A stretch of DNA of 61,413 nt from a virus (taxonomy: Duplodnaviria; Caudoviricetes), in the IMG/VR virus record IMGVR_UViG_3300044267_005592, positions 1 to 61,413 of that record. One strand, written 5' to 3'. The number at the start of each line of letters is the position of its first letter. Positions within the stretch are counted from its first letter, which is position 1. Under the pieces are notes generated by a model. The model saw only the letters and a program-made list of their open reading frames with translations. It made no database searches and was not told the origin of the DNA. Below, in pieces: positions 32,440-55,211 of this stretch. Position numbers and translations under genes: made by a program.

Positions 32440-32841
32440 CTAATTAATTATAGTAATTTTTTTACCCATTTTTTTTGCTTCGTTTAATGTATGGTTTGTT
32501 CCATTAGAATGAATTCCTTTCGGTATAAAACCTATTAAGAAATCACAATACTTAGCTAATAATTTATTTCTATGAAAAAAGTTTTTAGGTGAATAATTTT
32601 TATTGTAAAAGTTTTCATTACAAGCAGAGTATAGATTTGGAGTAGTATGTGAAGGATTAAATTCTTTATACTTACATTCCATTTCTAAAGCATACTTTTT
32701 TGCATACTTGTCTGCTCCATTAGGACAACCTCCAGAAACTATTATTAAATCTTCGTTAAACTTTTGACGTAGTTTATATATAGTCTCTTTAATTTTCCTT
32801 CTGTTCTCGTAAACTCTACTACCTATTATTCCTATTTTCAT
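32440..32841 (-). CDS. SLOG-family protein (YspA/DUF2493-like)
   Basis: IGIIGSR, IVSGGCPNGAD, RNKLL, SNGTNHT. Confidence 0.75.
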   Translation of the reverse strand: MKIGIIGSRVYENRRKIKETIYKLRQKFNEDLIIVSGGCPNGADKYAKKYALEMECKYKEFNPSHTTPNLYSACNENFYNKNYSPKNFFHRNKLLAKYCDFLIGFIPKGIHSNGTNHTLNEAKKMGKKITIIN

Positions 32842-33191
32842 TTTCTATCGTAATCATCTTCTATTCTAACTATATCATCCTCACCAAAGTAAGAACCATA
32901 TTGAACTTCTATAAATACTAAATCATCTAGACTTTTATTTTCTACCCGATGTTTAGTTAATACTGGTATGAATATTGTTTCTCCATAAGTGTGATGAGAA
33001 ACTTTATCATCTAAAGTAATAGTAGCATTACCAGATACTACAGTCCATACTTCATGTCTTTTATGATGATACTGATAACTTAATCTTCCTCCTGGGTTTA
33101 CAGTTATCTTTTTAACTTTACAATCACTATCATCAACCAGTATTTCAAATTTTCCCCAAGGACGTTTTTCTATATAATTTTTCACAAACAA
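32838..33191 (-). CDS. Cupin, mannose-6-phosphate isomerase type II C-terminal domain
   Basis: RPWG, LSYQYHHKRHEVWTVVSG, IEVQYGSYFGEDDIVR. Confidence 0.85.
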   Translation of the reverse strand: MFVKNYIEKRPWGKFEILVDDSDCKVKKITVNPGGRLSYQYHHKRHEVWTVVSGNATITLDDKVSHHTYGETIFIPVLTKHRVENKSLDDLVFIEVQYGSYFGEDDIVRIEDDYDRK

Positions 33192-34066
33192 CTAAAATAT
33201 CTTTCACCTCTATCACAGAGTATTGTTATAACATTTTTGGAATAAGAATTACTATAAGACCATCTCTCTGAAGCCAATACATTAGCTCCTGCGCTTATAC
33301 CAACGAATAAGCCTTTTTCTTCAGCTAAAAATCTAGCTTTTATTTTTGCTTCTTCGGTAGGTATAGTTATTACCTCGTCTACGAAATCCAAATCTACTAG
33401 AAACTTGCTGCCATCTCCTATTCCTTGAATACCATGAATCCCTTGTTCTCCTCCTGACATGACCGGACTCTCCGCCGGTTCTACGGCAATAATCTTCATA
33501 CCACTCCAGTGTTCTTTTAATCTCGTTCCGCAACCCATTAAAGTTCCTCCTGTGCCTGTACCTAAAATAAAGGCGTCTGGCGGGTCCAATTCTTTCCATT
33601 GTTCTATTATCTCCTCTGCAGTTGTTTCATAATGAGCTTTTACATTTAATTCATTATGGAATTGGTTACAATTAAACCAACCTCTTAACCCTGCTAATTT
33701 ATTTCTTAATTCTATAGCACCATCAAAATCACCCTCTTCAACTTCAATAAGATTAGCTCCGTAGAACTTAAACATCTTCTTACGCTCTTCTGACATATTA
33801 GATGGCATAACTATAAACATCTTATACCCTCTCTCGGCTGCTAACATAGCAAAAGCGATTCCAGTATTACCTGAAGTCGCTTCTACCAAAGTGTCTCCTT
33901 TTCTAATAAGTCCCCGTCTCTCTGCATCATTTAATATGTAAGTTGCCATTCTGTCTTTAACACTTCCTCCAGGATTCATGAATTCGGCTTTACCCCATAT
34001 AGTAAAGTATTCGAATTTAATTGGTAGGAGGGGAGTATTACCTACAAAGTCTGACAATTTTTTCAT
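33182..34066 (-). CDS. cysK: Cysteine synthase (O-acetylserine thiol-lyase)
   Basis: GNTPL, NPGGSVKDR, EATSGNTG, GTGTGGT, IQGIG, DRGERY. Confidence 0.88.
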   Translation of the reverse strand: MKKLSDFVGNTPLLPIKFEYFTIWGKAEFMNPGGSVKDRMATYILNDAERRGLIRKGDTLVEATSGNTGIAFAMLAAERGYKMFIVMPSNMSEERKKMFKFYGANLIEVEEGDFDGAIELRNKLAGLRGWFNCNQFHNELNVKAHYETTAEEIIEQWKELDPPDAFILGTGTGGTLMGCGTRLKEHWSGMKIIAVEPAESPVMSGGEQGIHGIQGIGDGSKFLVDLDFVDEVITIPTEEAKIKARFLAEEKGLFVGISAGANVLASERWSYSNSYSKNVITILCDRGERYFSCL

Positions 34067-35287: not shown

Positions 35288-36934
35288 CTAGTGTCCTGGA
35301 AAGGGTAAACCATCTTTAGCTAATGATGGCTCTATAGTTTCCTTATCTTTTGTCATTAAACATTCCGTAGTTATAATTGTTCCTGCAACTGAACCAGCTT
35401 TTTCTATAGCTGTTCTAGTTACTTTAGCAGGGTCTATAATTCCTGACTCTAACATATCAACTACTTTCTCAATTCTTGCATCATACCCTTTTGTCTTCGA
35501 ATCTTCAGAATGAATACGCATCCAAATTAATTCCCAATTTAGACCAGCATTAGACATTATAGCTTCGAAAGGTGCTTTACAAGCTCTTTGAATAATTTGA
35601 GAACCTCTTAATTGGTCATCATTTTCTATATCTACTTTAGCACTTAATCCTGCATGCATTAAAGCAATACCTCCTCCAGGTACTATACCTTCATCTAAAG
35701 CTGCTCTAGTTGCACAAAGAGAATCTTCTACTCTAAACTTCTTTTCTTCCATCTCCAATTCTGAATCTGCACCTATTCTACAAATAGCAACACCACCGGA
35801 TAGTTTTCCTAATCTCTCTTGGAGTTGTTCTGTATCATAATGGGATTCTGAGTCTTCTATTGCTGCAGTGATTTCTCTAACTCTAGATTCTATGTCTTTA
35901 GCATCACCATTTCCATCTATAATTGTAGTTCTCTTATTATTGATAGTAACTAATCTTGCAGAACCAAACCAGTTAGAATCGAAGTTAGTCAATTTCATAG
36001 CTTTATTAGGACTTACTACTGTTCCTCCTGTTAATACTGCAATATCTTCTAGGTTATCAGTTCTTTTTTCCCCATATCCAGCTGCTTTTACTGCTGCTAC
36101 ATTTAAAGTTCCTCTAGCCTTATTAACTATAAGACCTGCAAGAGCTTCGCCATCTATATCTTCAGCGATTATTAATAAAGACTTACCTGATGCAATACAA
36201 GCTTCTAAAGGTTTTACTAAATACTTTAAACTAGAAAGTTTTTCATCTACTAATAATATATTAGGGTCTTCTAGTTCTACTTGCATATTACTTTGGTTAG
36301 TTATAAAGTATGGTGAGCAATAACCTTTATCGAATTGTAAACCTTCTACAGTTTCTAAATAAGATTCTGCTGTTCTTGATTCTTCTACAGTCACAACTCC
36401 TTCTTTACCTACTTTATCTATAGCTGCACCAATTAACTTACCAATTTCTGAGTCATTATTTGCACTAATTCTAGCAATGTTTTCCACTTCTTTCTGACTT
36501 TTTATATCCTTAGATATTTTTTCTACTTCTTCAACTATAACTTTTACAGCTTTATCCATTCCCCTTTTTAGTTCTATAGGGTTGCATCCATTTTCTATAG
36601 CTTTAAAACCTTCATTTATGATTTCATCAGCTAATACAGTTGCTGTAGTTGTACCATCTCCGGCTTCGTCATTTACTTGGTTAGCTACTTCTTTTACCAT
36701 TTGTGCACCTGCATTTTCTAATTCATCTTTTAGTTGAATTTCTTTTGCTACAGTAACACCATCTTTTGTTGAAATATATTCCCCATATTCTTTTTCTATA
36801 ACTACATTTCTACCTCTTGGCCCAAGCGTAACTTTTACCGCTCTAGCTAATTGATTCACTCCAGATTTAATCTTTAGTCTAGCTTCTCTTTCGAAGTCTA
36901 AATTAGTAATGTTAGGGTTCCATTTTTTAGCCAT
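35288..36934 (-). CDS. groEL: Chaperonin GroEL
   Basis: TLGPRGRNV, TKDGVTVAK, AGDGTTTATVLA, GIVPGGG, GIIDPAKV. Confidence 0.97.
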   Translation of the reverse strand: MAKKWNPNITNLDFEREARLKIKSGVNQLARAVKVTLGPRGRNVVIEKEYGEYISTKDGVTVAKEIQLKDELENAGAQMVKEVANQVNDEAGDGTTTATVLADEIINEGFKAIENGCNPIELKRGMDKAVKVIVEEVEKISKDIKSQKEVENIARISANNDSEIGKLIGAAIDKVGKEGVVTVEESRTAESYLETVEGLQFDKGYCSPYFITNQSNMQVELEDPNILLVDEKLSSLKYLVKPLEACIASGKSLLIIAEDIDGEALAGLIVNKARGTLNVAAVKAAGYGEKRTDNLEDIAVLTGGTVVSPNKAMKLTNFDSNWFGSARLVTINNKRTTIIDGNGDAKDIESRVREITAAIEDSESHYDTEQLQERLGKLSGGVAICRIGADSELEMEEKKFRVEDSLCATRAALDEGIVPGGGIALMHAGLSAKVDIENDDQLRGSQIIQRACKAPFEAIMSNAGLNWELIWMRIHSEDSKTKGYDARIEKVVDMLESGIIDPAKVTRTAIEKAGSVAGTIITTECLMTKDKETIEPSLAKDGLPFPGH

Positions 36935-37236
36935 TATTTATCCTCCTTAATTATTGTTAAAATTTCACATTCTTTTATTATATGATATTCTACATCGTCT
37001 ACTTCTATAAGCTTAGACATATTTTTTTGGTACAAAACTCTATCACCAACTTTACATTGACCTGGTGTATAAGTTCCGCTAACTAGTGATTTCATTCCCG
37101 GCCCGATAGCTACTACTTTACCAAATAAATTACTTTCTTTGGTTAAATCTGGCATGATAACACCGCCTGAAGTCGTACTTACATCTTCTTGGGAAATTTC
37201 GATAATGATTCTATCTTCTATTGGATTGAATTCCAT
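36934..37236 (-). CDS. groES: Co-chaperonin GroES
   Basis: PIEDRI, TSGGVIMP, GKVVAIGPG, KVGDRVL. Confidence 0.92.
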   Translation of the reverse strand: MEFNPIEDRIIIEISQEDVSTTSGGVIMPDLTKESNLFGKVVAIGPGMKSLVSGTYTPGQCKVGDRVLYQKNMSKLIEVDDVEYHIIKECEILTIIKEDK

Positions 37237-37295: not shown

Positions 37296-39734
37296 TTACT
37301 TTTTAAACTCATCACTTTCTAGCAAAATTTTTATTTTGTCTATAAGTTTAAATTCATCTAATTGTTCTAATACTTGTTTTTTAAAATACACATCGTAATC
37401 TATTTCAAAGACGTCTTTTCTTTTATCGATATACTTTAAATCTTCTGAATTTAGGCATATAGCTTTCTGTCTTTCTTTTGCTTTTAAATCCTCTTCACAA
37501 TTACTTTTTATATAAAATAAATAAGGATTGTCTTGATGTGTTATTTTAGTTCCTAATTTTTCATTTGCCCACTTTGCTGCTTTAACATGTTGAGGCATTG
37601 TCTTTTCATAATCTTTAAATGGTTTGCCAAAAGCTTTAGATATACCAATAGTTTCATAAGGCTGACTTTCTAATATACTTCTTAAATCTTTAACCCAATT
37701 TACATCTAATTGGTCTCTAACAGCTAATTCAGCCATATCATTTAGTTTATCTTTTAAAAATTCTGGGGTATCTTTTCTGATTATATTTAAGCCTCTAATA
37801 TACTTCTTACCAGTTTCTCTTATGATAGTATAATACCTTTTCTTTGCTTCACTGAAATAAGCATATTCTAAGTCATATTCGAATTTTAAATCCATGTGAT
37901 TATATTCCAAATCTACTTCTGGATTATACTTCTTAACAAAGTTATTCTCTAAATTCTTATTAAAGCCTTCCAACTCTATATTCATTTGCTCTTCATTCTT
38001 ACCTTCGGACTTAACAAATATAGAATCTGTATCACCATATAAAGTCTTATGGCCTCTACTAGTAAAATCTACTATAGCATATTTTAAAGCTTGTCTAGCA
38101 AAAAATGTAATAGCATCTGCACATTCATAAGAACATAATCTAAAGTAATTAAAGCCCATTGCACCGTAAGCTGAATTAAGTATAAGTTTAAAAGCCCACT
38201 GTCGCTTTTTCATAGCTACAGCCATATCACCTTCATAGTTACCAGCTTTTAAATTACTATTTATTTCGACTCTTTTTAAGAATAGCTTCTTAAGTATTAT
38301 AGGCATTAAACCTAATTTGTGTTTGTGAGAATAGAATAAATATCTCTTACCAAAAAGGTCTTCTTGAAATCCAGTATCTATTACTGGTACACCATCTTTT
38401 TCTAATTCAGATTTAACATCTTCGAAGTTTATTCCTAACTTTTGACACTCTTCTTCTGAAGTTATAAAAGTTTCTGGACTGATATTAAATGCCATTATTG
38501 TTGTAGGATATAGCGAAGTATAATCCATAACAGTAACATCTTTATGTCTACCAGGTTCTGTAGGGTCTATAACTATAGCACCAGCATATCCACGCCTTTG
38601 GATAGTTCGCCTAGTAGGGAATATCATTTTGTTATGAAATTCTTTAACCATATAGTTATCTACAATCATAGACTTAAAGAATACTAAACTTAAAGTTTCT
38701 AAATTAGCAATCTGTTGCATTGTTATATACAAATCGAACATTTGTATTTTATCATTTATTTCTTTAAGAATTTCAACATCCCGTACAGCGTATTTAATAA
38801 AACCATTATAATCATCTAACCAATCTCGCCAAGTTACGTCTGTAAGTTTATCGTAGTTTTCATCACCAGTTATTTCTTTTACTGCTGTTGCCAATTTCCA
38901 ATTAGGAAGGTTGTAGCCCATATCTTTTAGACCTTCCATCATATCAACATGGTCTAAACCTCTTATATTAAATCGCCAGTAATCTCCACGTTTTCTCATA
39001 TAGACATCTTCTACTGGAGACATCTTTTCAAATGGTAATCCTAAAACTTTACACCTATTAATTATGTAAGGAACGTCAAAGCCACCTGAGTACCAACCAG
39101 TAAGAATATCTACATTACTAACACTAAGTAAATCTAAAAATCCCCAAATAACTTCTTCTTCAGTCTTACTAAATACATAAGTGACATCGCCTTTATCTAC
39201 GATTTTAGGTTCTTCGAAGTCTTTAGTTTTTTCTGGGTGCCAAGAGAATACAAAATACCTTTCTTTCTCTGTAGAATAAAGCACGATAGAAGTTATTGGC
39301 ATTAGAGCTTTTCCTGGAGAGTTTTTAGAATTATCAGCAGGGTCGTACCAAGTTTCAATATCAAAATACATTATGTGTCGTTTATTAGACCACTGTAAAT
39401 TGTTATCTAAAACATATTTGAATTCTGGTTTAACATCTGCTTGAAAAATTCTATCTCTAAAAGTCCTATCTATATTATTCTTTTCTTTTATAGAAGAGTA
39501 ATATATTTTATTAACTTTTTCCCCATTCATACTATCGTAGAATTTGGTATCCCCACAATCAAAAGCCCGCTTATCTTCTATATCGTCTAAATGATTTGCA
39601 TTGTAATAAAAATAGTCTCTATAAGTGTCTACTTTTTTTACAAACTTTCCTTCTTGGTTATATCCAAATTGATGGATATTCCAAACCCCTTTGCCAAACT
39701 TGGCAGCTATTCTTGATAATTTAAATTCTTCCAT
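37296..39734 (-). CDS. Family B DNA polymerase with 3'-5' exonuclease
   Basis: FDIET, GFDVPY, DYTSLYP, KLILNSAYG, YGDTDS. Confidence 0.95.
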   Translation of the reverse strand: MEEFKLSRIAAKFGKGVWNIHQFGYNQEGKFVKKVDTYRDYFYYNANHLDDIEDKRAFDCGDTKFYDSMNGEKVNKIYYSSIKEKNNIDRTFRDRIFQADVKPEFKYVLDNNLQWSNKRHIMYFDIETWYDPADNSKNSPGKALMPITSIVLYSTEKERYFVFSWHPEKTKDFEEPKIVDKGDVTYVFSKTEEEVIWGFLDLLSVSNVDILTGWYSGGFDVPYIINRCKVLGLPFEKMSPVEDVYMRKRGDYWRFNIRGLDHVDMMEGLKDMGYNLPNWKLATAVKEITGDENYDKLTDVTWRDWLDDYNGFIKYAVRDVEILKEINDKIQMFDLYITMQQIANLETLSLVFFKSMIVDNYMVKEFHNKMIFPTRRTIQRRGYAGAIVIDPTEPGRHKDVTVMDYTSLYPTTIMAFNISPETFITSEEECQKLGINFEDVKSELEKDGVPVIDTGFQEDLFGKRYLFYSHKHKLGLMPIILKKLFLKRVEINSNLKAGNYEGDMAVAMKKRQWAFKLILNSAYGAMGFNYFRLCSYECADAITFFARQALKYAIVDFTSRGHKTLYGDTDSIFVKSEGKNEEQMNIELEGFNKNLENNFVKKYNPEVDLEYNHMDLKFEYDLEYAYFSEAKKRYYTIIRETGKKYIRGLNIIRKDTPEFLKDKLNDMAELAVRDQLDVNWVKDLRSILESQPYETIGISKAFGKPFKDYEKTMPQHVKAAKWANEKLGTKITHQDNPYLFYIKSNCEEDLKAKERQKAICLNSEDLKYIDKRKDVFEIDYDVYFKKQVLEQLDEFKLIDKIKILLESDEFKK

Positions 39735-39792: not shown

Positions 39793-40248
39793 TTAATTAT
39801 TTTTGAGAAAGTTATTAACAATTACACCAGCTTCTTTTAAGAATTCTAAGCCATTTGGTTCGTAATTATCTCTATAAACTACTCGCTTTATACCAGACTG
39901 ATGAATAAGTTTAGCACAGTTTCTACATGGAGCAGTTGTAAGATATAGAGTAGCACCTTCACAAGAATTCCCATACTTAGCACACTTCAGAATTGCATTT
40001 GCTTCTGCATGAAGAACTTCCCATTTAGTTTTATCATCTACTTCACAATCATTTTCGAATCCAGAAGGCATTCCATTATACCCATCTGAAATAATCTGAG
40101 TATTCTTTACAATAAGTGCACCTACTTTCCTCCTTTTGGCATGGGACAATTGAGCCCAAGATTCTGCCATTTGAATATAAGTTGCGTCTTTCTTATTTAG
40201 TTCCTGTACTTCCAAATCCTCCATCTCCTCTATTAGATTCCTCTTCAT
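39793..40248 (-). CDS. dCMP deaminase
   Basis: KVGALIV, DGYNG, HAEANA, PCRNC. The true start is probably downstream of 40248 (for example ATG 40224). Confidence 0.9.
   Translation of the reverse strand: MKRNLIEEMEDLEVQELNKKDATYIQMAESWAQLSHAKRRKVGALIVKNTQIISDGYNGMPSGFENDCEVDDKTKWEVLHAEANAILKCAKYGNSCEGATLYLTTAPCRNCAKLIHQSGIKRVVYRDNYEPNGLEFLKEAGVIVNNFLKNN
39808..39823 (-). promoter_or_regulatory. 16-bp upstream element AATTGTTAATAACTTT, copy 1
   Basis: Exact copy at 51001-51016; both lie at the same offset from a TATATT promoter core. Confidence 0.55.
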
Positions 40249-40630
40249 ATAAATTTTCTTCGCTAACTTCTTCTAGGATTGGATTTCCTAATTTTAGAAG
40301 TACGAATTGAACTACTTTATCTCCTGGTAATAATTGTGTATACTCCTGACCTATATTTACCAAATGAATATGAACTTCACCTTGATAACCACAATCTACT
40401 ACACAAGCTCCAACTTGTAATCCTTTTTTAGTGGCTACTCCTGATTTGTTAAATGCTACTAAAGCATAACCTTCAGGAACGTTTACTTTGATTCCAGAAG
40501 CTATTAAGCAACTATCTCCTGGTGTTAGTGTTATTGTACCCGCAGTTTCAGGAACAAAAAAATCTATTCCTGCATCTGTATTATTTGCTCTCTTTGGTGT
40601 TTTTACATCCTTAACTTTTGCAAATTTCAT
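40193..40630 (-). CDS. dut: Trimeric dUTPase
   Basis: AGIDF, KSG, VVDCGYQGE, VQFV, RGDGGFGSTG. Confidence 0.92.
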   Translation of the reverse strand: MKFAKVKDVKTPKRANNTDAGIDFFVPETAGTITLTPGDSCLIASGIKVNVPEGYALVAFNKSGVATKKGLQVGACVVDCGYQGEVHIHLVNIGQEYTQLLPGDKVVQFVLLKLGNPILEEVSEENLYEEESNRGDGGFGSTGTK

Positions 40631-40640
40631 TTTAATCTCC

Positions 40641-41441
40641 TTACTTATTTTGTTTTAATATACCTTTTTCATTTTCAAATACATGTAAAGAAGTTATGTG
40701 CATTTGAAAAAATCCTAATTTAATATCCTTCCACTTCAATTCTAGAGGTGGATTATCATTATCTTGTCTCTTAAGAAAGTCTGCTTTTTCCAATTCAATC
40801 TTTTTCAATTCTTCTAGAATAAAGTAAGCTTTTCTGCAAGCCATGTATATATCATCTCTGAAGTGTCTTAGAAAATCACAAGACCTTATGTAATATATTA
40901 TATGTAAAAAATCATTTCTTACAATAAATTGATAACCTAAAGTACAAGGAACTCTTTCACCATGAACTGCTCCTGTATCTTCAGGAAACCATATAGGTAA
41001 AAAAGCTTGTCTTGTTAAAGGCTCTTCATATAGTAATCTTATAACATCATCTAAATTCCCATACTTATATCTCATACCTCTAAGTTTATGAGGCCAAATT
41101 CTTTCTGGATAAGTGTGAGAAAACTGTTCATCTGATTTGAATTTCTTATTATTCTTTTGGGCAAAGGGCCACCACTCATTACTTGGTGGAGGGTTTAGAG
41201 GTAGTCTACCAATCCTCTCTTCAAAGTGGTCATCAGCCCAAGGTAAATTTGGATTAATGTCTAATTGCATTTGGCTTACATTCTGAGGCATTTTGAAACC
41301 AAAGCTATGTCCAAATAGTTCCCACATACCTTGGTTCACATCTATAGATTGCCAACGGCCGGAATTTACTACTTGACCTAAATTATACAACTTTTCTTTA
41401 GTTGCTTTAATTGCTATATCTGCCGATTCATAATACTGCAT
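40641..41441 (-). CDS. Divergent thymidylate synthase / dCMP hydroxymethylase homolog
   Basis: TRQA, catalytic VPC, RSCDFLRHFRDD, SLHVF. Confidence 0.8.
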   Translation of the reverse strand: MQYYESADIAIKATKEKLYNLGQVVNSGRWQSIDVNQGMWELFGHSFGFKMPQNVSQMQLDINPNLPWADDHFEERIGRLPLNPPPSNEWWPFAQKNNKKFKSDEQFSHTYPERIWPHKLRGMRYKYGNLDDVIRLLYEEPLTRQAFLPIWFPEDTGAVHGERVPCTLGYQFIVRNDFLHIIYYIRSCDFLRHFRDDIYMACRKAYFILEELKKIELEKADFLKRQDNDNPPLELKWKDIKLGFFQMHITSLHVFENEKGILKQNK

Positions 41442-42777
41442 GTTGCATACCTTCTTTAAATAATTTAATAACCTTTTTTCTATAATCTAAAGGCTGAGTT
41501 TTAATACTCTCATTCTTTAATGGAGCTTTGCTTCTATCTACAATCTTCTTAGGAACCCAATCTCCAAAAGTAGTTTTAAGAATTTCTTTATTCATTCTTT
41601 CCATTCTAGTACAACCTAAAGCATACCTAATAACATCATGACCTAAAAATGGATTTCTCAATTCTATTGTATGGGCCATAGACATTCTATCGAGTCTTGG
41701 TAAATGATAGTAAGTTAGTTCGTGGTATATATCAGAACCTTGCGAATCATATTCACTAATTCTTCTATAACCACCAAATAATTCATCAGCACCATCACCT
41801 GATAAAACTATCCTATGTCCAGTTTTTGCTACAGCATCAAACAAATGGAATTGTGGTATTACAGAACCTAAGTCAATTGGAGTTTCATTCCATTTACAAT
41901 AGATTTCTTTTAACATACTCTTATCGTTTAAATCATAAGTAAGTTTATTAACTTTTATACCATAGAAATCTTCACAAAGTTTTATGTATTCAGATTCTCC
42001 ATTCTCAATAGTATAATAAGTAACGTCTGCACCTTCCCATTCTAGTATTGATGTTATGATAGTAGAATCTAATCCTCCAGAAAGTAAAACTGATATTGGA
42101 TAATTCTTAGATAGTAACCTTCTTTTAACAGAAGTTTTTAGAATCTCTTTTAAATCTCCAGATTTTGGAGTAAATATAAAATTATCAATAGTACTTACTA
42201 TTTTTGAATCATTTTTCCAAGAATAAATCTTAGTAGGATTTAATCTAGATATACCACTCCAAGGAGTTTTAAGGTCATGATTATATCCCCACTTATTGAT
42301 AGAACCAAAATAAGCTGGGTCTATTAAATTGTTATTATGGAGTGGTTTTATTTCTGAACATATTTCATAATCTTCATTTATGTACAATTGTTTTTTACCT
42401 AATGGGTCTGTAAAACATATAAAAGTATTTGTACTCTTATTATAATAAACTATAGACCAAAACCCATCCCAAGATTCATACTCTTTAAACTTATGTTTTC
42501 TGAAGTGCTCTAAATCTTTACAATCAGCAAAAAATGTTTTTAAGTATTCAGTATCAGAACTGTATTTGTCGGGATAATTAAATATCTCACCATTAAATAG
42601 TAAAATACCATCATCAGATTCTATTGGCTGTTTCCATTCATCATTATCTCTAGTCTGAATAGGTAATCTGTGATGTATAAAATGTTTATCGTCTTTACTA
42701 ATGTAATGACTTTCCGTTCCTCTATGTTTTATCATAGGACCTCTTTCAGGTCTATTTGTAACTAATATTCCACACAT
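41428..42777 (-). CDS. Asparagine synthetase B-like glutamine amidotransferase (compact, 449 aa)
   Basis: MCGI (Ntn Cys), HHRL, FNGEIFN, LSGGLDS (PP-loop), SGDGADELFGGY, DRMSMAHTIELRNPFL. Confidence 0.88.
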   Translation of the reverse strand: MCGILVTNRPERGPMIKHRGTESHYISKDDKHFIHHRLPIQTRDNDEWKQPIESDDGILLFNGEIFNYPDKYSSDTEYLKTFFADCKDLEHFRKHKFKEYESWDGFWSIVYYNKSTNTFICFTDPLGKKQLYINEDYEICSEIKPLHNNNLIDPAYFGSINKWGYNHDLKTPWSGISRLNPTKIYSWKNDSKIVSTIDNFIFTPKSGDLKEILKTSVKRRLLSKNYPISVLLSGGLDSTIITSILEWEGADVTYYTIENGESEYIKLCEDFYGIKVNKLTYDLNDKSMLKEIYCKWNETPIDLGSVIPQFHLFDAVAKTGHRIVLSGDGADELFGGYRRISEYDSQGSDIYHELTYYHLPRLDRMSMAHTIELRNPFLGHDVIRYALGCTRMERMNKEILKTTFGDWVPKKIVDRSKAPLKNESIKTQPLDYRKKVIKLFKEGMQHAVL

Positions 42778-43289
42778 AATTTTTTAAATCTATTTACTGA
42801 TTTTTCATCGAAAGCATTATAAAACCTTTCATAACCTACACCGCTATCTTTAAGAGCTTTTAAAAATGTATCAAAAGAATTTAATTCAACATCTCTAGGA
42901 ACATCGTCCCAAATATCTTTATAGCCTCTTTGTTCTGGATTTTTACCAACAACATAAATTATTTTAACGTTTTGGAATAAACCATCTTTTATAAAATAGT
43001 TAAATTGGTCCATAGCTTCTTCTTGGGTTATTCTCTTTTGGAATACTCCCCAAGCTAAAGCTGTTATAACACCTCTATCCATATAGGTACTATTAAGATA
43101 ACCATTTTTATTAAGTTCGTGAATCATAATCTCTTTGCCTAAACCTAAGCAATGACCATCAGTACACGTTTCTTTCAATCCAAGTCTTTCAAACCATCCT
43201 GTAAAAGGAAATTTGAAAACTGGAGTTTCTAATTGACTCAACAAAAATGTTTTGCCACTATTTCTTGCACCTTCTATAATTGTTAACAT
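42762..43289 (-). CDS. P-loop nucleoside monophosphate kinase (thymidylate-kinase-like)
   Basis: IIEGARNSGKT; YMDRG. Confidence 0.7.
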   Translation of the reverse strand: MLTIIEGARNSGKTFLLSQLETPVFKFPFTGWFERLGLKETCTDGHCLGLGKEIMIHELNKNGYLNSTYMDRGVITALAWGVFQKRITQEEAMDQFNYFIKDGLFQNVKIIYVVGKNPEQRGYKDIWDDVPRDVELNSFDTFLKALKDSGVGYERFYNAFDEKSVNRFKKLCVEY

Positions 43290-43293
43290 AATC

Positions 43294-43312
43294 TAAATAT
43301 AATAAAAATTTA
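43294..43312 (-). promoter_or_regulatory. Putative early/middle promoter (TTTTTATTATATTTAG) heading the pyrimidine operon
   Basis: Repeated motif a few bp upstream of the kinase ATG. Confidence 0.5.
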
Positions 43313-43336
43313 CGACTTTTAAAAACTTTATTAAGG

Positions 43337-43537
43337 TTATTTATAAGCACAATGCCTACAACCACTATTACAGCAATAACCTCTTTTTTTGTGATACTCT
43401 TCAGTAAAAACTACTTTACCATCTTCTTCATAAAAATCTTCGCGGGATGAAAAATCTTCTTCAAAATTTTTTCCGAGAAACTCCTTTAAGTATAATTTCT
43501 GTACCCAATCAAACAATTTCACAACTCCCGCCAGCAC
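43337..43537 (-). CDS. Small Cys-rich protein, DUF5522-like
   Basis: FYEEDGKVVFTEEYHKKRGYCCNSGCRHCAY; start uncertain. Confidence 0.65.
   Translation of the reverse strand: MLAGVVKLFDWVQKLYLKEFLGKNFEEDFSSREDFYEEDGKVVFTEEYHKKRGYCCNSGCRHCAYK
43437..43455. repeat. 19-bp exact dispersed repeat, copy 2
   Basis: Identical to 34682-34700. Confidence 0.85.
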
Positions 43538-45368
43538 ACGCTAATTCACCAGTAAGATTTGTCTCATCTTTTTCTTCGATAACTTTTGATAAATCAACAT
43601 TCGTTAAAGATTCCATCATCTCATTATACTTTTTTTCAGTGATATCTTCAAATGGGGCTTGAGTGTAGCTCCCTCCGTCATATGGAAGTACTGATAAACC
43701 ATTATAGGATTTTCTATTCTCCCACATCCACTCTCCTGCTAAATCCCAATCGTTTTCTTTTAAAGAAATTGTTGCTGAAACATTATGAGTATTCGAACCA
43801 TTTCTATGCCCAGAAGCAACCCATTCAGTAGCTATTTTTTTAACTCTTTCCAGTAGTTGGAATGGAGACTCTGTTCTAAGTATTGCGCCTTTAGGGGCTT
43901 TTTGTGGTATTTGAATCACAGCAGTATCATGTGGTCTGAAGTACTCATCTTCGACTAATTCAGGATGGTTTTCATTTAGATAACCATATATAGATTCGTT
44001 CTTACCAACTCTAATTCTACGAATATAATAATCGTTATGCCAAGCGTGTATACCAGAACTAGTTCCTAATGTTAGAGAAGTAGTTCCTGCAGGTTTTACA
44101 GTTGTACATCTAGCGGCTTTATTTATTCCTAAAATCTTTGATACTCTAGTATTTTCTCTTTTAACAATACTAGCTGCTTTTTTCATGTCATAACCTAGAA
44201 CTGTACCAGAACCTATACCAGTCATACTCACGCCTATTAAAGCATCTTTTTCTGTTGTCTCTTGCCATATAGGTCTTAAATAGTGAAATTCTGTATATCC
44301 TGCTTGGAGAGTTCCAATAAATGCAGCAGCTTTAACTCTAGAATTTAAATCTTCTTGTGATTCTATATTTGAAACATTTACTTCACATAAGTTACAAAAT
44401 TGGAAAGGTCTTAATGCAATTTCACAACAAGGATTAGTTCCCCAATCTTTATCATTATTAAGATATATACCAGGTTCACCTGCTCCTGATAGTTCTACTC
44501 TTTTCCATAAGTCCATAAAAAACTCTTTAGTTATTTTATGTCTCATAAGTACTGCAGAATTATTTGCTCTACCTCTCTGTGCATTTAATTCCCACCAATT
44601 ACCAGATTTACACCCTATCATTTGGTCATCATCTGCACTAAATAAACTGATAAGTGCTGCTCTACGAATACCACCAGCTAATACAGCATCGGCTATGTGA
44701 CAAACCATGTCGTGAGCTTCTAAAGTAGTTATACTATCTCCAGTTTCTTTCTGTTCTAAAATCCCAGTTAATTTTAAAATACATTCTTTTAATGGTTGAG
44801 GTCCAGGAGCTTTACCACCTGAAGTTACTAACCTAGAACCTTTTGGTCTGATATCTGAATAGTCAAATTCTACTCTACTTCCACCACCATTCATATATGA
44901 CTTCATAAGAACTTTAATAGCATCTGCCCAACCTTCTATTGAATCTCCAATTAAAAACCTTCTAGTTCTTTTTGGATATGGTTTATTTATTACTGGGAGT
45001 TTTTCAACGTGATGTTTCTGAACCGAATAGCCTACTCCTGTACCACCTAATAATAAAAACATTGTTTCCGAAAATGAATCAATAGAATCTATTGGAAGGT
45101 ATGCACAATTATAAACTCTATTTGGACTTATTTCAATTGGCTTTCCTGCAAATTGCATACTCCTCATAGATGGAAGTACTTTCTTTTCAAATACAAATTT
45201 GTAAGCTTCTTGAATTTCTTCTGTTAATTTGGGGTATTTCTTTATGTGCATATTCACATTTCGAGTTACTAATTCTTCCCACGTTTCTCTCCGGTTTAAT
45301 TCCGGTACATACTTAGCATACTTCATGTAGACAGTAATGTCACTAAGTATTCTTGTAGATACTTCCAT
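43509..45368 (-). CDS. nrdJ: Class II (adenosylcobalamin-dependent) ribonucleotide reductase
   Basis: NCAY, GGIRRAALI, TNPCCEI, TTVKPAGT, C-terminal CAGGSC; no small subunit nearby. Confidence 0.88.
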   Translation of the reverse strand: MEVSTRILSDITVYMKYAKYVPELNRRETWEELVTRNVNMHIKKYPKLTEEIQEAYKFVFEKKVLPSMRSMQFAGKPIEISPNRVYNCAYLPIDSIDSFSETMFLLLGGTGVGYSVQKHHVEKLPVINKPYPKRTRRFLIGDSIEGWADAIKVLMKSYMNGGGSRVEFDYSDIRPKGSRLVTSGGKAPGPQPLKECILKLTGILEQKETGDSITTLEAHDMVCHIADAVLAGGIRRAALISLFSADDDQMIGCKSGNWWELNAQRGRANNSAVLMRHKITKEFFMDLWKRVELSGAGEPGIYLNNDKDWGTNPCCEIALRPFQFCNLCEVNVSNIESQEDLNSRVKAAAFIGTLQAGYTEFHYLRPIWQETTEKDALIGVSMTGIGSGTVLGYDMKKAASIVKRENTRVSKILGINKAARCTTVKPAGTTSLTLGTSSGIHAWHNDYYIRRIRVGKNESIYGYLNENHPELVEDEYFRPHDTAVIQIPQKAPKGAILRTESPFQLLERVKKIATEWVASGHRNGSNTHNVSATISLKENDWDLAGEWMWENRKSYNGLSVLPYDGGSYTQAPFEDITEKKYNEMMESLTNVDLSKVIEEKDETNLTGELACAGGSCEIV

Positions 45369-54191: not shown

Positions 54192-55211
54192 CTAAAACGG
54201 TAAAGTTTTTAGGTCATTATAGTTGTTTCCATAAACTATAGTAGTTGGAAATCTTAACACTTTTTCTATAGATTTTATTAGTTTTTTACCATCTTTTGGG
54301 TTAAAATCTATAAGGAAGGAGTCGTAAGTGTACAAAATTAATTTTGAATCATAACCATTTAATTCCTTAAAAAGTAATTTTATCATCTCTACATTAGATT
54401 CTGTTTCGAAAGCTTGTATCTGATAATTAAATAATTTTTGTGGATTAACATTTTCAAAACATTCTTTATATAACTTTCTTTTATATATAGGAGTTTCTAT
54501 ATAACCCTTCTTATTATAAATATCCCAAAGAGAAAAAATATAATCTTTTATACCATCAAAGAATGGTATCTTTTTAAAGTTTTTTGGTATTCCACCATAA
54601 AGTAGTCTGAAAGACATTGCTTTAGACATTTCGTAATCTTGTGGGGTTAATTCTTGCTTTCCAAAATACTCTTTTCCCAACTGTTCGTGGATAGAATTAT
54701 TATCGAATTTGTACTTTGTTAACTCTGCTATAAGTCTAAGATGATATGCATCGAAATCAAATTCTATTAAAAGACCTTTATCAAATCTACTTATAAATCT
54801 TTTCCTAGAACCATCGTCTTTATTCAGTGCAGCGTAATTAATTCCATTGTTTGCATTAGAAGGTCTACCAGTTAGAGTGTAAATGTTATACTTTGTGTAT
54901 TCATAACCATCTTTTGTGTAAAGGCCATTAGATTCTATATTACTAAAAACTTCTGCTAAATTCTTATAGTTTTCATAAACTTTAGAATCTGGGTTGTCAT
55001 AATCATTTAGTTTTTTTCTTAGTAAATTTAGACGTTCTTTGTGTTTTATTTCTGGAATTATAGAATTTATATCAGACCTACTCCAGTACTTATTTTCAAA
55101 AAACTTATGTGCTGAAGTAGTTATTTCTTCAGTATTCAAAGACTTTCCTAAATTTAAGTATGAAATTAATTTTAATTCTTTTTCTATATTTTCAATCTGT
55201 TCTACAACCAT
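54192..55211 (-). CDS. Minimal family A DNA polymerase domain (no exonuclease)
   Basis: TLTGRPS; motif A EFDFDAYHLR; motif B SKAMSFRLLYG; NYQIQ; motif C YTYDSF. Confidence 0.8.
   Translation of the reverse strand: MVVEQIENIEKELKLISYLNLGKSLNTEEITTSAHKFFENKYWSRSDINSIIPEIKHKERLNLLRKKLNDYDNPDSKVYENYKNLAEVFSNIESNGLYTKDGYEYTKYNIYTLTGRPSNANNGINYAALNKDDGSRKRFISRFDKGLLIEFDFDAYHLRLIAELTKYKFDNNSIHEQLGKEYFGKQELTPQDYEMSKAMSFRLLYGGIPKNFKKIPFFDGIKDYIFSLWDIYNKKGYIETPIYKRKLYKECFENVNPQKLFNYQIQAFETESNVEMIKLLFKELNGYDSKLILYTYDSFLIDFNPKDGKKLIKSIEKVLRFPTTIVYGNNYNDLKTLPF

What the first reader, a model, noticed from the sequence alone, without database searches (positions are those of the whole stretch)
39793..43312. 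Candidate new pyrimidine-modification pathway: dCMP-type TS homolog, asparagine-synthetase-like amidotransferase and NMP kinase
Seen: one promoter drives kinase-asnB-TS-like-dut-dCMP deaminase, directly upstream of polB, with overlapping gene ends. The TS homolog keeps the catalytic PC and RSxD but reads RSCDFLRHFRDD: Asp at the E. coli Asn177 position, His at the conserved Gly, and HVF for HxY. Known: Asp here confers dCMP specificity (T4 gp42), AsnB-like enzymes transfer Gln-derived ammonia to an ATP-activated acceptor, and dedicated kinases feed modified dNMPs to the polymerase. Inference: synthesis of a non-canonical, possibly amino- or amide-bearing, C5-modified cytosine nucleotide for the genome. 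An alternative is an unusual dTMP route via 5-methyl-dCMP and the deaminase. I know of no characterised pathway with this trio.
Basis: partly seen in the sequence, partly recalled or inferred. Interest (0 to 1): 0.87.

Follow-up and report, generated by a model that had tools for sequence, protein, structure and literature searches.

The report
Phage cytosine-modification operon with amidotransferase
An uncultured marine phage carries, next to its DNA polymerase, genes that probably build a chemically altered cytosine for its DNA, including a virus-only amidotransferase whose substrate is unknown.

Summary
On the minus strand lie a TMPK-fold kinase, an AsnB-family glutamine amidotransferase, a very divergent thymidylate-synthase homolog (TSl), a dUTPase, a dCMP deaminase and PolB. 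TSl keeps the catalytic Cys but has Asp at the E. coli Asn177 site and Thr at His147. That is the pattern of dCMP-specific enzymes. Five of 5 complete jumbo-phage genomes with TSl also encode a canonical ThyA. A 46-kb phage with a related TS-like gene has ThyX. So TSl is probably not the dTMP synthase.

The conserved pair is kinase plus AsnB-like (76 of 80 loci), not AsnB-like plus TSl. In jumbo phages the pair lies about 100 kb from TSl. Even so, all 9 complete AsnB-bearing genomes carry a D-type TS-like gene. A second, unrelated lineage also puts AsnB-like between a TS-like gene and dUTPase. A sister lineage has kinase and TSl without AsnB-like.

The AsnB-like family is virus-specific, is not tied to sugar genes, and occurs without CmoA or CmoX.

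Best reading: a T4-style pre-replicative cytosine modification with an optional amidation step that has not been characterised. The chemistry is unproven. I score it as a new variant of a known kind, interest 0.62.

The parts
42762..43289 (-). Kinase ('kin'), 175 aa. P-loop protein with a thymidylate-kinase/deoxynucleoside-kinase fold; probable dNMP kinase for a non-canonical nucleotide.
   Evidence: ORF. No Pfam, PHROG or NCBIfam hit and no tblastn hit in phage records. AF2 pLDDT 92.3. Best Foldseek hits are S. aureus TMK at 2.9e-4 and M. mycoides dAK at 3.9e-4. The family alignment shows an invariant EGxRxxGK P-loop and a DR motif. It is a remote homolog of the Serbin 'thymidylate kinase' (hhalign 90.6%, 160 columns). 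It is not like M6 gp54, the 5-HMUDK.
41428..42777 (-). AsnB-family glutamine-dependent adenylating amidotransferase, 449 aa, of a virus-specific clade. The acceptor substrate is unknown.
   Evidence: Pfam Asn_synthase 4.5e-37 and GATase_7. TIGR01536 scores 196.3, below its 267.1 cut-off. Cys2, NGE, SGGLDS and the Lys449 equivalent are kept; SGDGADE replaces SGEGSDE, His replaces Asp384, and about 100 C-terminal residues are missing. Best PDB hits are human ASNS at 6.7e-35 and E. coli AsnB at 3.3e-32. Relatives at 46% identity or more are found only in viral contigs and 4 MAG contigs.
40641..41441 (-). TSl: divergent thymidylate-synthase-fold enzyme, 266 aa, of the cytosine (dCMP) type.
   Evidence: The catalytic Cys is kept, with Asp at N177, Thr at H147 and D169 kept. 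Best Foldseek hits are the phage HY126 dCMP hydroxylase (9iqc/9iqu, 8e-11), then MilA, then TS. 4989 relatives were found.
40193..40630 (-). Trimeric dUTPase.
   Evidence: Pfam dUTPase 8.9e-18. TIGR00576 scores 102.7 against a cut-off of 102.55. phrog_135 1.7e-40.
39793..40248 (-). dCMP deaminase.
   Evidence: Pfam dCMP_cyt_deam_1 1e-24. phrog_174 7.3e-54.
37296..39734 (-). Family B DNA polymerase immediately downstream.
   Evidence: Pfam DNA_pol_B 1.6e-47 and exonuclease domain 2.9e-11. Only about 25% identical to T4-like polymerases.
43296..43323 (-). Promoter-like hexamer pair in the 47-nt gap upstream of the kinase. Weak evidence.
   Evidence: 9 of 12 matches. Site counts in the region are not above the shuffled expectation. 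The 28-mer is unique in the window.
43337..45368 (-). Upstream co-directional genes: class II RNR-like (43509-45368) and the small Cys-rich DUF5522 protein (43337-43537). They may belong to the same transcription unit.
   Evidence: Synteny is conserved in relatives.

Best explanation
The block is a pre-replicative deoxycytidylate-modification module of an uncultured phage. CheckV puts the window at 34% of the genome, so the whole genome may be about 180 kb.

Shown by the calls:
- A tightly packed run of kinase, AsnB-like amidotransferase, TS-fold enzyme (TSl), dUTPase and dCMP deaminase lies in front of PolB.
- TSl has the cytosine-type active-site signature.
- TSl coexists with a canonical TS in complete related genomes.
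- The kinase has a TMPK/dNK fold.
- The AsnB-like protein keeps all glutaminase and ATP-pyrophosphatase motifs.

Inferred:
- dUTPase and dCMP deaminase manage the dUMP and dCMP pools, as in T4.
- TSl uses its Cys to activate C5 of dCMP and installs a one-carbon group. This is most likely hydroxymethyl from methylene-tetrahydrofolate, because Asp169 is kept and the C-terminal lid that shields the intermediate from water is missing.
- The kinase phosphorylates the non-canonical dNMP, which host kinases would handle poorly, and PolB incorporates it.

Most speculative: the AsnB-like enzyme is an optional add-on that works with the kinase. It would use glutamine-derived ammonia and ATP to amidate (or aminate) the modified nucleotide, or the modified base once it is in DNA. 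The result would be an amide- or amine-bearing C5-substituted cytosine.

My odds: about 0.75 that TSl makes a modified dCMP that ends up in virion DNA, and about 0.5 that AsnB-like acts in that same pathway.
For: TSl is a cytosine-type enzyme.
- Alignment to E. coli ThyA and T4 gp42 gives Cys146 kept, H147T (as in gp42) and N177D (as in gp42). These are invariant in 20 of 20 family members.
- The best PDB sequence hits are MilA, a CMP hydroxymethylase (3e-5), and the L. casei TS N229D mutant.
- The best Foldseek hits are the phage dCMP hydroxylase 9iqc/9iqu and MilA.
- N177D marks a dCMP substrate, and positions 147 and 177 are the two residues most associated with cytosine-modified viral contigs (PMC13326640 sections 24 and 28; PMC8670742 section 11).

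TSl is not the dTMP synthase.
- 5 of 5 complete jumbo genomes with TSl also have a PF00303 match of 269-299 bits.
- The one I aligned is 50% identical to E. coli ThyA and has PCH and FNI.
- The 46-kb phage G016 has ThyX two genes downstream of AsnB-like, in the same operon as its TS-like gene.

Kinase.
- It has a TMPK/dNK fold.
- It is a remote homolog of the kinase in the siphophage module kinase-dUTPase-X-TSl-deaminase-PolA.
- It lies directly upstream of TSl in the AsnB-less sister lineage L005-L010, 6 of 80 loci.

AsnB-like is linked to this system.
- The kinase family lies next to it in 76 of 80 loci.
- 9 of 9 AsnB-bearing records that are at least 90% complete carry a TS-like gene (one search had none that complete).
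- 8 of 8 complete TSl records among the 44 examined carry AsnB-like.
- A second lineage (L146, L153, L158) has a TS-like gene only 31-35% identical to TSl, also with Asp at 177, followed by AsnB-like and dUTPase with overlapping ends.
- The AsnB-like family is virus-specific.
- Its presence does not track sugar genes.
Against: - The kinase plus AsnB-like pair is about 100 kb from TSl in jumbo genomes. In G075, AsnB-like is at 60,133-61,536 and TSl at 161,224-161,997.
- Only 4 of 80 TSl loci have AsnB-like within 8 kb.
- The complete jumbo genomes share synteny. They count as one lineage, so the 9/9 and 8/8 figures overstate independence.
- TSl works without AsnB-like in many phages: 116 cultured phage records with TSl against 12 records with only weak AsnB-like hits in other genera, plus G011, G012 and G003.
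- AsnB-family enzymes adenylate carboxylates (established knowledge of the family). A hydroxymethyl or methyl group offers none, so the acceptor is unexplained.
- The acidic cluster that binds the amino group of aspartate in human ASNS (Glu364, Asp367, Glu368; PMC6748925 passages) is largely kept here as Asp, Asp, Glu. A true asparagine synthetase is therefore not excluded.
- Position 143 is Arg, not the Asp or Glu typical of hydroxymethylases (PMC13326640 section 24).
- The TSl model has low-confidence loops at 102-124 and 153-162.
Confidence: 0.5

Rival explanations
1. This is a T4-like modified-cytosine pathway (TSl, kinase, dUTPase, deaminase), but the AsnB-like gene is not part of it. It would be a genuine, if divergent, asparagine synthetase or another metabolic helper gene that merely travels with the kinase.
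For: - The closest solved relatives are asparagine synthetases: human ASNS 6.7e-35 and E. coli AsnB 3.3e-32.
- All catalytic motifs and most of the acidic cluster that binds the aspartate amino group are kept (PMC6748925 passages).
- In jumbo phages the gene is about 100 kb from TSl.
- The sister lineage lacks it.
Against: - It scores below every NCBIfam asparagine-synthase cut-off: 196.3 against 267.1 and 132.7 against 499.
- The Asp384 equivalent is His, about 100 C-terminal residues are missing, and there is a family-specific insertion.
- It sits in the nucleotide operon of two unrelated lineages, including complete phages of 46 and 49 kb.
- It is never seen in a complete genome without a D-type TS-like gene: 9 of 9.
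- It is adjacent to a nucleotide-kinase-fold gene in 76 of 80 loci.
Confidence: 0.25
2. An unusual dTMP route. TSl methylates dCMP to 5-methyl-dCMP, and the adjacent dCMP deaminase converts that to dTMP.
For: - No other ThyA or ThyX was found in the window or in the 77-80% complete relatives G011 and G012.
- The deaminase is in the same operon.
- Asn-to-Asp TS mutants methylate dCMP (cited in PMC8670742 section 11).
Against: - Complete genomes with TSl also carry a canonical ThyA, 5 of 5, or ThyX. A second dTMP route would be redundant.
- TSl lacks the C-terminal segment present in ThyA.
- The route explains neither the dedicated kinase nor AsnB-like.
- The window is only 34% of a genome, so the absence of thyA or thyX there is weak evidence.
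Confidence: 0.08
3. Post-replicative, CmoY-like chemistry. The AsnB-like enzyme amidates a carboxyl-bearing cytosine (such as 5-carboxymethylcytosine) already in DNA, as the AsnB homolog CmoY does with glycine.
For: - PMC12783734 (passages and section 13) shows that CmoY, an asparagine-synthetase homolog, ligates glycine to DNA 5-carboxymethyl-C. It also predicts a second ligase cluster with a glutaminase domain that would use ammonia.
- Streptomyces phage TurkishDelight gp121-125 shows that arrangement.
- Its gp124 is a homolog of our family (hhalign 99.6%).
Against: - CmoA (TIGR00740) was found in 0 of 11 records searched, 7 of them complete.
- A C5 DNA methylase was found in 1 of 10 records and not in the window.
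- Our family is only about 21% identical to gp124. gp124 is closer to E. coli AsnB (33%) than ours is (26%).
- No source of a carboxymethyl group is visible.
Confidence: 0.07
4. The AsnB-like enzyme belongs to the large sugar-nucleotide and glycosyltransferase cluster of the window and amidates a uronic acid, as AsnB-like enzymes do in polysaccharide pathways.
For: - The window carries a cluster of about 20 kb with GT2, GT1 and GT4 glycosyltransferases, dehydratases, aminotransferases and a formyltransferase.
- The sister genome G011 lacks both AsnB-like and most of that cluster.
Against: - The complete genomes G016 and G017 have AsnB-like but no GT2 and no epimerase/dehydratase match, 0 of 2.
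- G011 has GT2 and epimerase genes without AsnB-like.
- The gene lies about 9 kb from the nearest glycosyltransferase of the cluster (about 13 kb from its core) and is translationally coupled to nucleotide genes.
Confidence: 0.05

Closest known systems
T4-type pre-replicative hydroxymethylcytosine pathway (gp56 dCTPase/dUTPase, gp42 dCMP hydroxymethylase, gp1 dNMP kinase, cd dCMP deaminase, td thymidylate synthase)
   Same: A TS-fold enzyme with Asp at 177 and Thr at 147 like gp42, a pool-editing dUTPase-family enzyme, a dCMP deaminase, a dedicated nucleotide kinase, and proximity to a family B polymerase. A separate canonical TS is present in complete related genomes.
   Different: TSl is only about 21% identical to gp42. 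It has Arg rather than an acidic residue at position 143, His at 173, and an even shorter C-terminus. The kinase has no detectable sequence family. An AsnB-family amidotransferase is added. The product is unknown.
CmoA/CmoX/CmoY 5-carboxymethylcytosine and glycyl-carboxymethylcytosine system of Synechococcus phage S-B43, and its predicted glutamine-dependent variant (PMC12783734)
   Same: An asparagine-synthetase homolog is used for cytosine C5 hypermodification of phage DNA. A variant with a glutaminase domain exists, seen in TurkishDelight gp124, and is homologous to our family.
   Different: That system is post-replicative and needs a Cx-SAM synthase and a C5-methyltransferase homolog. Both are missing here. 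Here the partners are a TS-fold enzyme and a nucleotide kinase. Identity to gp124 is about 21%.
Flavin-dependent 5-hydroxy-dCMP synthases (RB69 gp48, DLP3 gp80, HY126 AfhB; PMC13326640, PDB 9iqc/9iqu)
   Same: A TS fold acting on dCMP. These are the best structural matches to the TSl model. They work together with a cognate dNMP kinase.
   Different: Their diagnostic Asp169-to-Asn change is absent, since TSl keeps Asp. No arabinosyl-transfer genes were identified next to TSl.
Thymidine hypermodification pathways (dUMP hydroxymethylase, 5-HMUDK, aGPT-Pplase; PMC5889632, PMC8989533)
   Same: A TS homolog plus a P-loop kinase plus group-transfer enzymes. The authors note uncharacterised amidotransferases associated with such clusters (PMC8989533 discussion passage).
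   Different: Those act on uracil and on DNA. Our TS homolog is of the cytosine type. Our kinase resembles TMPK/dNK and not M6 gp54.

Membership tests
Thymidylate synthase ThyA (dUMP to dTMP) | Matches the family model above its curated thresholds | tested here: inconclusive
   Pfam PF00303 scores 27.5 bits against a 24.3 cut-off, over residues 116-191 only. The NCBIfam equivalogs are far below their cut-offs: 38.9 against 174.55 and 21 against 325.
Thymidylate synthase ThyA (dUMP to dTMP) | Catalytic Cys146 in a P-C motif | tested here: met
   VPCT aligns to APCH of E. coli ThyA. The motif is invariant in the family.
Thymidylate synthase ThyA (dUMP to dTMP) | Asn177 and His147, which read uracil | tested here: not met
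   Asp and Thr occupy these positions. The canonical ThyA of jumbo phage G004 has Asn and His.
Thymidylate synthase ThyA (dUMP to dTMP) | C-terminal segment after His207 that closes over the folate | tested here: not met
   TSl ends 13 residues after the His207 equivalent. E. coli ThyA continues for 57 residues.
T4-type dCMP hydroxymethylase | Asp at position 177 plus the catalytic Cys | tested here: met
T4-type dCMP hydroxymethylase | Acidic residue at position 143 (PMC13326640 section 24) | tested here: not met
   Arg is at 143, and Glu is one position earlier.
T4-type dCMP hydroxymethylase | Formation of 5-hydroxymethyl-dCMP from dCMP and methylene-tetrahydrofolate | not testable with these tools
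   This needs an enzyme assay.
5-hydroxy-dCMP synthase (flavin-dependent TS homolog) | Asp169 replaced by Asn (PMC13326640 section 28) | tested here: not met
   RSCD is kept and is invariant in 20 of 20 family members.
Asparagine synthetase B | N-terminal Cys nucleophile, PP-loop SGGxDS, and Lys449 (human Lys466) | tested here: met
   MCGI, SGGLDS and a conserved Lys are present in the alignment with E. coli AsnB.
Asparagine synthetase B | Score above the equivalog cut-off, and the conserved Glu348/Asp384 (human Glu364/Asp400) pocket | tested here: not met
   TIGR01536 scores 196.3, below 267.1. Glu is replaced by Asp and Asp384 by His. The roles of these residues come from passages of PMC6748925.
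CmoA/CmoX/CmoY system | Cx-SAM synthase CmoA and a C5-methyltransferase homolog CmoX in the same genome | tested here: not met
   TIGR00740 was found in 0 of 11 records. PF00145 was found in 1 of 10 records and not in the window. The window is only 34% of a genome.
Thymidylate kinase / deoxynucleoside kinase fold | P-loop and overall fold | tested here: met
   The best Foldseek hits are TMPK and dAK, with TM about 0.6 and E 3e-4. The P-loop and DR motif are invariant. Reading the DR motif and P-loop Arg as TMPK-like is recalled, not tested.
Thymidylate kinase / deoxynucleoside kinase fold | Matches the family models (PF02223, PF01712) | tested here: not met
   There are no Pfam, PHROG or NCBIfam hits. 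The ESM Atlas shows Thymidylate_kin on only 12% of one neighbouring cluster.
[quoted passage not shown] | Homology to M6 gp54 | tested here: not met
   hhalign gives probability 44% over 50 columns that exclude the P-loop.

The most novel reading that the evidence does not exclude
The kinase plus AsnB-like pair, together with the D-type TS-fold enzyme, would make a previously unknown amide- or amine-bearing C5-substituted deoxycytidine at the nucleotide level, which the phage polymerase then incorporates. TSl would install a group other than plain hydroxymethyl. Its invariant Arg143, Arg172 and His173 around C5 could hold an anionic, carboxyl-bearing substituent or nucleophile. The virus-only amidotransferase would convert that group to the amide, and the TMPK-fold kinase would be specific for the product. 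This would be the first pre-replicative amidated cytosine hypermodification. It would be widespread in jumbo and marine phages: 201 AsnB-like and 340 TSl loci in IMG/VR.
Probability: 0.3. Interest if true: 0.85.

Novelty: new variant of a known kind. Interest (0 to 1): 0.62.

Why it matters
Modified bases let phages escape restriction and CRISPR, and they supply enzymes for biotechnology.

- This TS-fold clade is very large: 4989 proteins at E <= 0.001. It spans Gordonia, Serratia, Brevundimonas, Streptomyces and Clostridium phages as well as jumbo phages. It is annotated everywhere as plain thymidylate synthase, yet it carries the cytosine signature and coexists with real ThyA or ThyX.
- If it makes a modified dCMP, many sequenced phages have unrecognised modified DNA.
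- The kinase plus AsnB-like pair is a compact, testable two-gene module with no assigned function. It could extend the recently found use of asparagine-synthetase homologs in DNA hypermodification from DNA-level to nucleotide-level chemistry.

Tried and rejected
- Complex prediction of AsnB-like with the kinase gave no verdict (score 0.00 against a mark of 0.32, controls not run). I do not use it either way.
- The unknown protein of about 270 aa upstream of TSl in siphophages, labelled 'pyrimidine hmase synthase' in Yersinia phage P744, shows no detectable similarity to TSl (hhalign probability 0.2%). It has no PDB sequence hit and no Pfam hit. A MAFFT alignment had hinted at shared motifs, and I dropped that idea.
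- The neighbours of TSl and of the kinase/AsnB pair in jumbo phages gave little. Near TSl there are MGS-like, metallophosphoesterase and RNase HII genes. Near the pair, nine of ten neighbours had no Pfam hit and one was NUDIX.
- I looked for a recurring promoter motif and found none. The 28-mer upstream of the kinase is unique in the window.
- The paper on phage P744 does not mention thymidylate, modification or restriction (0 passages). The paper on T-modified phage polymerases did not bear on this clade.
- No paper describes an AsnB-family enzyme together with a TS homolog and a kinase. One search found 0 papers with all five terms and one search found 0. One search found 6 papers, of which only PMC12783734 is relevant. 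One search found no follow-up on the glutamine-type ligase.
- My statements that Arg325 and Lys376 of E. coli AsnB are catalytic or substrate-binding, and are not kept here, are recalled. I leave them out of the evidence.

Full report
**What is there.** The window is a 61,413-bp IMG/VR virus record that CheckV rates 34% complete. All its genes are on the minus strand.

The finding covers five tightly packed genes:
- a 175-aa P-loop protein, 42762-43289;
- a 449-aa AsnB-like protein, 41428-42777;
- a 266-aa TS-like protein (TSl), 40641-41441;
- a dUTPase, 40193-40630;
- a dCMP deaminase, 39793-40248.

A family B polymerase follows at 37296-39734. Gene ends overlap by 16, 14 and 56 nt, and one junction has a 10-nt gap. 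Pfam, PHROG and NCBIfam scans agree with these names. The kinase-like protein matches nothing in them. TSl only just passes Pfam's thymidylate-synthase threshold, at 27.5 bits against 24.3.

Upstream lie a class II RNR-like gene, a small DUF5522 protein, a DnaB-like helicase, a FEN-like nuclease, RecA, a gp32-like SSB and UvdE. Downstream lie GroES/GroEL, a PD-(D/E)XK nuclease and a sugar-nucleotide and glycosyltransferase cluster of about 20 kb.

A promoter-like site lies before the kinase at 43323-43296, but such sites are no more frequent than in shuffled sequence.

**The TS homolog.** I aligned TSl with E. coli ThyA and T4 gp42.
- Kept: the catalytic Cys, Arg166-Ser167, Asp169, Tyr94 and His207.
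- Changed: Thr at His147 (as in gp42), Asp at Asn177 (as in gp42), Arg at Leu143, Arg at Leu172, His at Gly173, Asp at Phe176 and Phe at Tyr209.
- TSl stops 13 residues after the His207 equivalent.

These residues are invariant in 20 of 20 aligned relatives that share 57-82% identity.

By sequence, the best solved relatives are the CMP hydroxymethylase MilA and an Asn229Asp mutant TS crystallised with dCMP. By structure, the AF2 model (pLDDT 79.7) matches best the flavin-dependent dCMP hydroxylase of phage HY126, then MilA, then ordinary TS.

The literature I read gives three residue rules:
- Asp at 177 means a dCMP substrate.
- An acidic residue at 143 goes with hydroxymethylation.
- Asn at 169 goes with 5-hydroxylation.

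These come from PMC13326640, sections 24 and 28. Positions 147 and 177 are also the two residues most associated with cytosine-modified viral contigs (PMC8670742, section 11).

TSl meets the first rule, fails the third and is ambiguous on the second. I conclude that it acts on dCMP. Its product is not determined. The missing C-terminal lid and the retained Asp169 lead me to favour a folate-dependent transfer ending in hydration.

**TSl is not the thymidylate synthase.**
- The family is large: 4989 proteins at E <= 0.001 among 5411 candidates, 340 of 348 candidate stretches confirmed in IMG/VR, and 116 cultured phage records.
- Five of 5 complete jumbo-phage genomes (270-435 kb) that carry TSl also carry a strong PF00303 match of 269-299 bits, and none has ThyX.
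- The one I aligned is 50% identical to E. coli ThyA, with His147, Asn177 and a full C-terminus.
- In a complete 46-kb phage, a related D-type TS-like gene shares an operon with ThyX.
- In the window's own lineage I found no second TS, but the best records are only 77-80% complete.

**Which linkage is conserved.** Around 80 TSl loci:
- only 4 (L004, L011, L021, L037, all close relatives of the window) have AsnB-like next to TSl;
- 6 (L005-L010, a sister lineage) have kinase-TSl-dUTPase-PolB with no AsnB-like;
- 70 have neither gene within 8 kb.

Around 80 AsnB-like loci, the kinase family lies immediately upstream in 76. So the conserved unit is kinase plus AsnB-like.

In jumbo phages this pair is about 100 kb from TSl, among genes that mostly have no Pfam match.

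At genome level the genes travel together. All 9 AsnB-bearing records that are at least 90% complete have a TS-like match (the 40 records included none that complete). All 8 complete TSl records among the 44 examined have AsnB-like. Seven of those nine are syntenic jumbo phages and count as one lineage.

The more telling case is a third lineage: L146, L153 and L158, from records G016, G017 and G018, the first two complete at 46 and 49 kb. It carries a different D-type TS-like gene, 31-35% identical to TSl, with RSND as in gp42. That gene is followed by an HNH gene, a small ORF, AsnB-like (50% identical to ours), dUTPase and ThyX. It has no kinase of our family.

The observed combinations are:
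- kinase + AsnB-like + TSl;
- kinase + TSl;
- AsnB-like + TS-like;
- TSl alone.

AsnB-like was never seen in a complete genome without a D-type TS-like gene.

**The kinase.** The AF2 model is confident (pLDDT 92.3). Its best matches are thymidylate kinases and a deoxyadenosine kinase. ESM Atlas neighbours are all viral and mostly unnamed.

The family profile detects the annotated 'thymidylate kinase' of Serratia phage Serbin over 160 columns (hhalign 90.6%). That gene heads a module shared by Gordonia, Serratia, Yersinia and Brevundimonas siphophages: kinase, dUTPase or MazG, an unknown protein of about 270 aa, TSl, a deaminase, PolA, and a Cas4-like nuclease.

The profile does not detect the DNA-level kinase 5-HMUDK, M6 gp54. 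I read the protein as a dNMP kinase for the TSl-derived nucleotide. This mirrors T4 gp1 and the cognate kinases needed in the 5-hydroxy-dCMP system (PMC13326640, section 24).

**The amidotransferase.**
- It keeps the Cys2 nucleophile, the NGE motif, the SGGLDS PP-loop and the Lys449 equivalent. It should therefore hydrolyse glutamine and adenylate an acceptor.
- It lacks about 100 C-terminal residues of AsnB and has a family-specific insertion between the two domains.
- It reads SGDGADE where AsnB, human ASNS and TurkishDelight gp124 read S/TGEGSDE.
- It has His at the Asp384 (human Asp400) position. Residue roles are from passages of PMC6748925.
- It scores below all NCBIfam asparagine-synthase cut-offs.
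- Relatives at 46% identity or more occur in 201 viral stretches. In GTDB genomes they occur on only 4 MAG contigs, and the next cellular relatives are at 31% or less.

The closest published analogy is CmoY, an asparagine-synthetase homolog that ligates glycine to 5-carboxymethylcytosine in phage DNA. The same paper predicts a second, uncharacterised ligase cluster that has a glutaminase domain (PMC12783734, passages and section 13). I found that arrangement in Streptomyces phage TurkishDelight: ParB, ParB, methyltransferase, gp124, methyltransferase.

Our family is homologous to gp124 but distant, at about 21% identity. The required CmoA and CmoX are absent: CmoA in 0 of 11 records, and a C5 methylase in 1 of 10 records and not in the window.

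A role in the neighbouring sugar cluster is unlikely. G016 and G017 have AsnB-like but no GT2 or epimerase genes, and G011 has those genes but no AsnB-like.

**Verdict.** The cytosine-type reading of the TS homolog is well supported, and so is its separation from dTMP synthesis.

The trio is not a fixed unit. The amidotransferase is an optional, kinase-coupled accessory that appears only where a D-type TS-fold enzyme is present.

The most likely mechanism is a T4-style pre-replicative cytosine modification with an added ATP- and glutamine-dependent amidation step. What is amidated is unknown. The simple products of a TS-fold enzyme have no carboxylate, which is the main weakness of this reading. 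A genuine asparagine synthetase remains a live rival.

I class the finding as a new variant of a known kind. It is worth an experiment because the genes are few, the assay already exists, and the gene families are very widespread.

Noticed in passing
window 12023-32212 (-): A cluster of about 20 kb for sugar-nucleotide synthesis and transfer. It holds three GT2, a GT1-like and a GT4 ('conflict-system' type) glycosyltransferase, four to five SDR dehydratases/epimerases including GDP-mannose-dehydratase-like genes, two DegT aminotransferases, a formyltransferase, a GHMP kinase, a cytidylyltransferase, a SIS isomerase, a split transketolase and a methyltransferase. It could glycosylate DNA, virions or the host surface. 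The sister genome G011 lacks most of it.
   Followed up: partly
G010:C1:396502-398409 (IMG/VR record of 430,120 bp): The TSl gene of this complete jumbo phage is split into profile positions 1-177 and 173-257 within one open frame of 637 aa. This looks like an intein or similar insertion just after the catalytic region.
   Followed up: no
L001 5202-6035, L002 5138-5977, L164 4054-4971, L165 4165-4974: In siphophages of Yersinia, Brevundimonas, Gordonia and Serratia, a conserved protein of unknown function (about 270-305 aa) sits immediately upstream of TSl. It belongs to the module kinase, dUTPase or MazG, X, TSl, deaminase, PolA, Cas4-like nuclease. It has no Pfam or PDB match and no similarity to TSl. 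It may be another modification enzyme.
   Followed up: partly
L146 2064-2954 and 7173-7697: The 46-kb phage G016 has a dCMP deaminase gene carrying an HNH/AP2-like insertion. It also has a free-standing HNH endonuclease between its TS-like and AsnB-like genes. Homing elements cluster in this nucleotide operon.
   Followed up: no
window 43337-43537 (-): A small Cys-rich DUF5522 protein of 66 aa lies between the RNR-like gene and the kinase, overlapping the RNR-like gene's end by 29 nt. It is present in L003/L004 but absent from the AsnB-less sister genome G011.
   Followed up: no
window 35288-37236 (-): The phage encodes GroEL (548 aa) and GroES (100 aa) directly downstream of PolB.
   Followed up: no
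window 32440-34066 (-): A YspA/SLOG-family protein, a mannose-6-phosphate-isomerase-type cupin and a PLP-dependent (PALP) enzyme lie between the nuclease and the glycosyltransferases. The cupin and the PALP genes are missing from G011.
   Followed up: no
G095:C1:111448-112854: The AsnB-like gene of this record contains one in-frame TAG. This could be a sequencing error, a pseudogene or stop-codon recoding.
   Followed up: no
window 54192-55211 (-): A 339-aa ORF has a weak family A DNA polymerase match (35.7 bits) in a phage that also has a family B polymerase.
   Followed up: no
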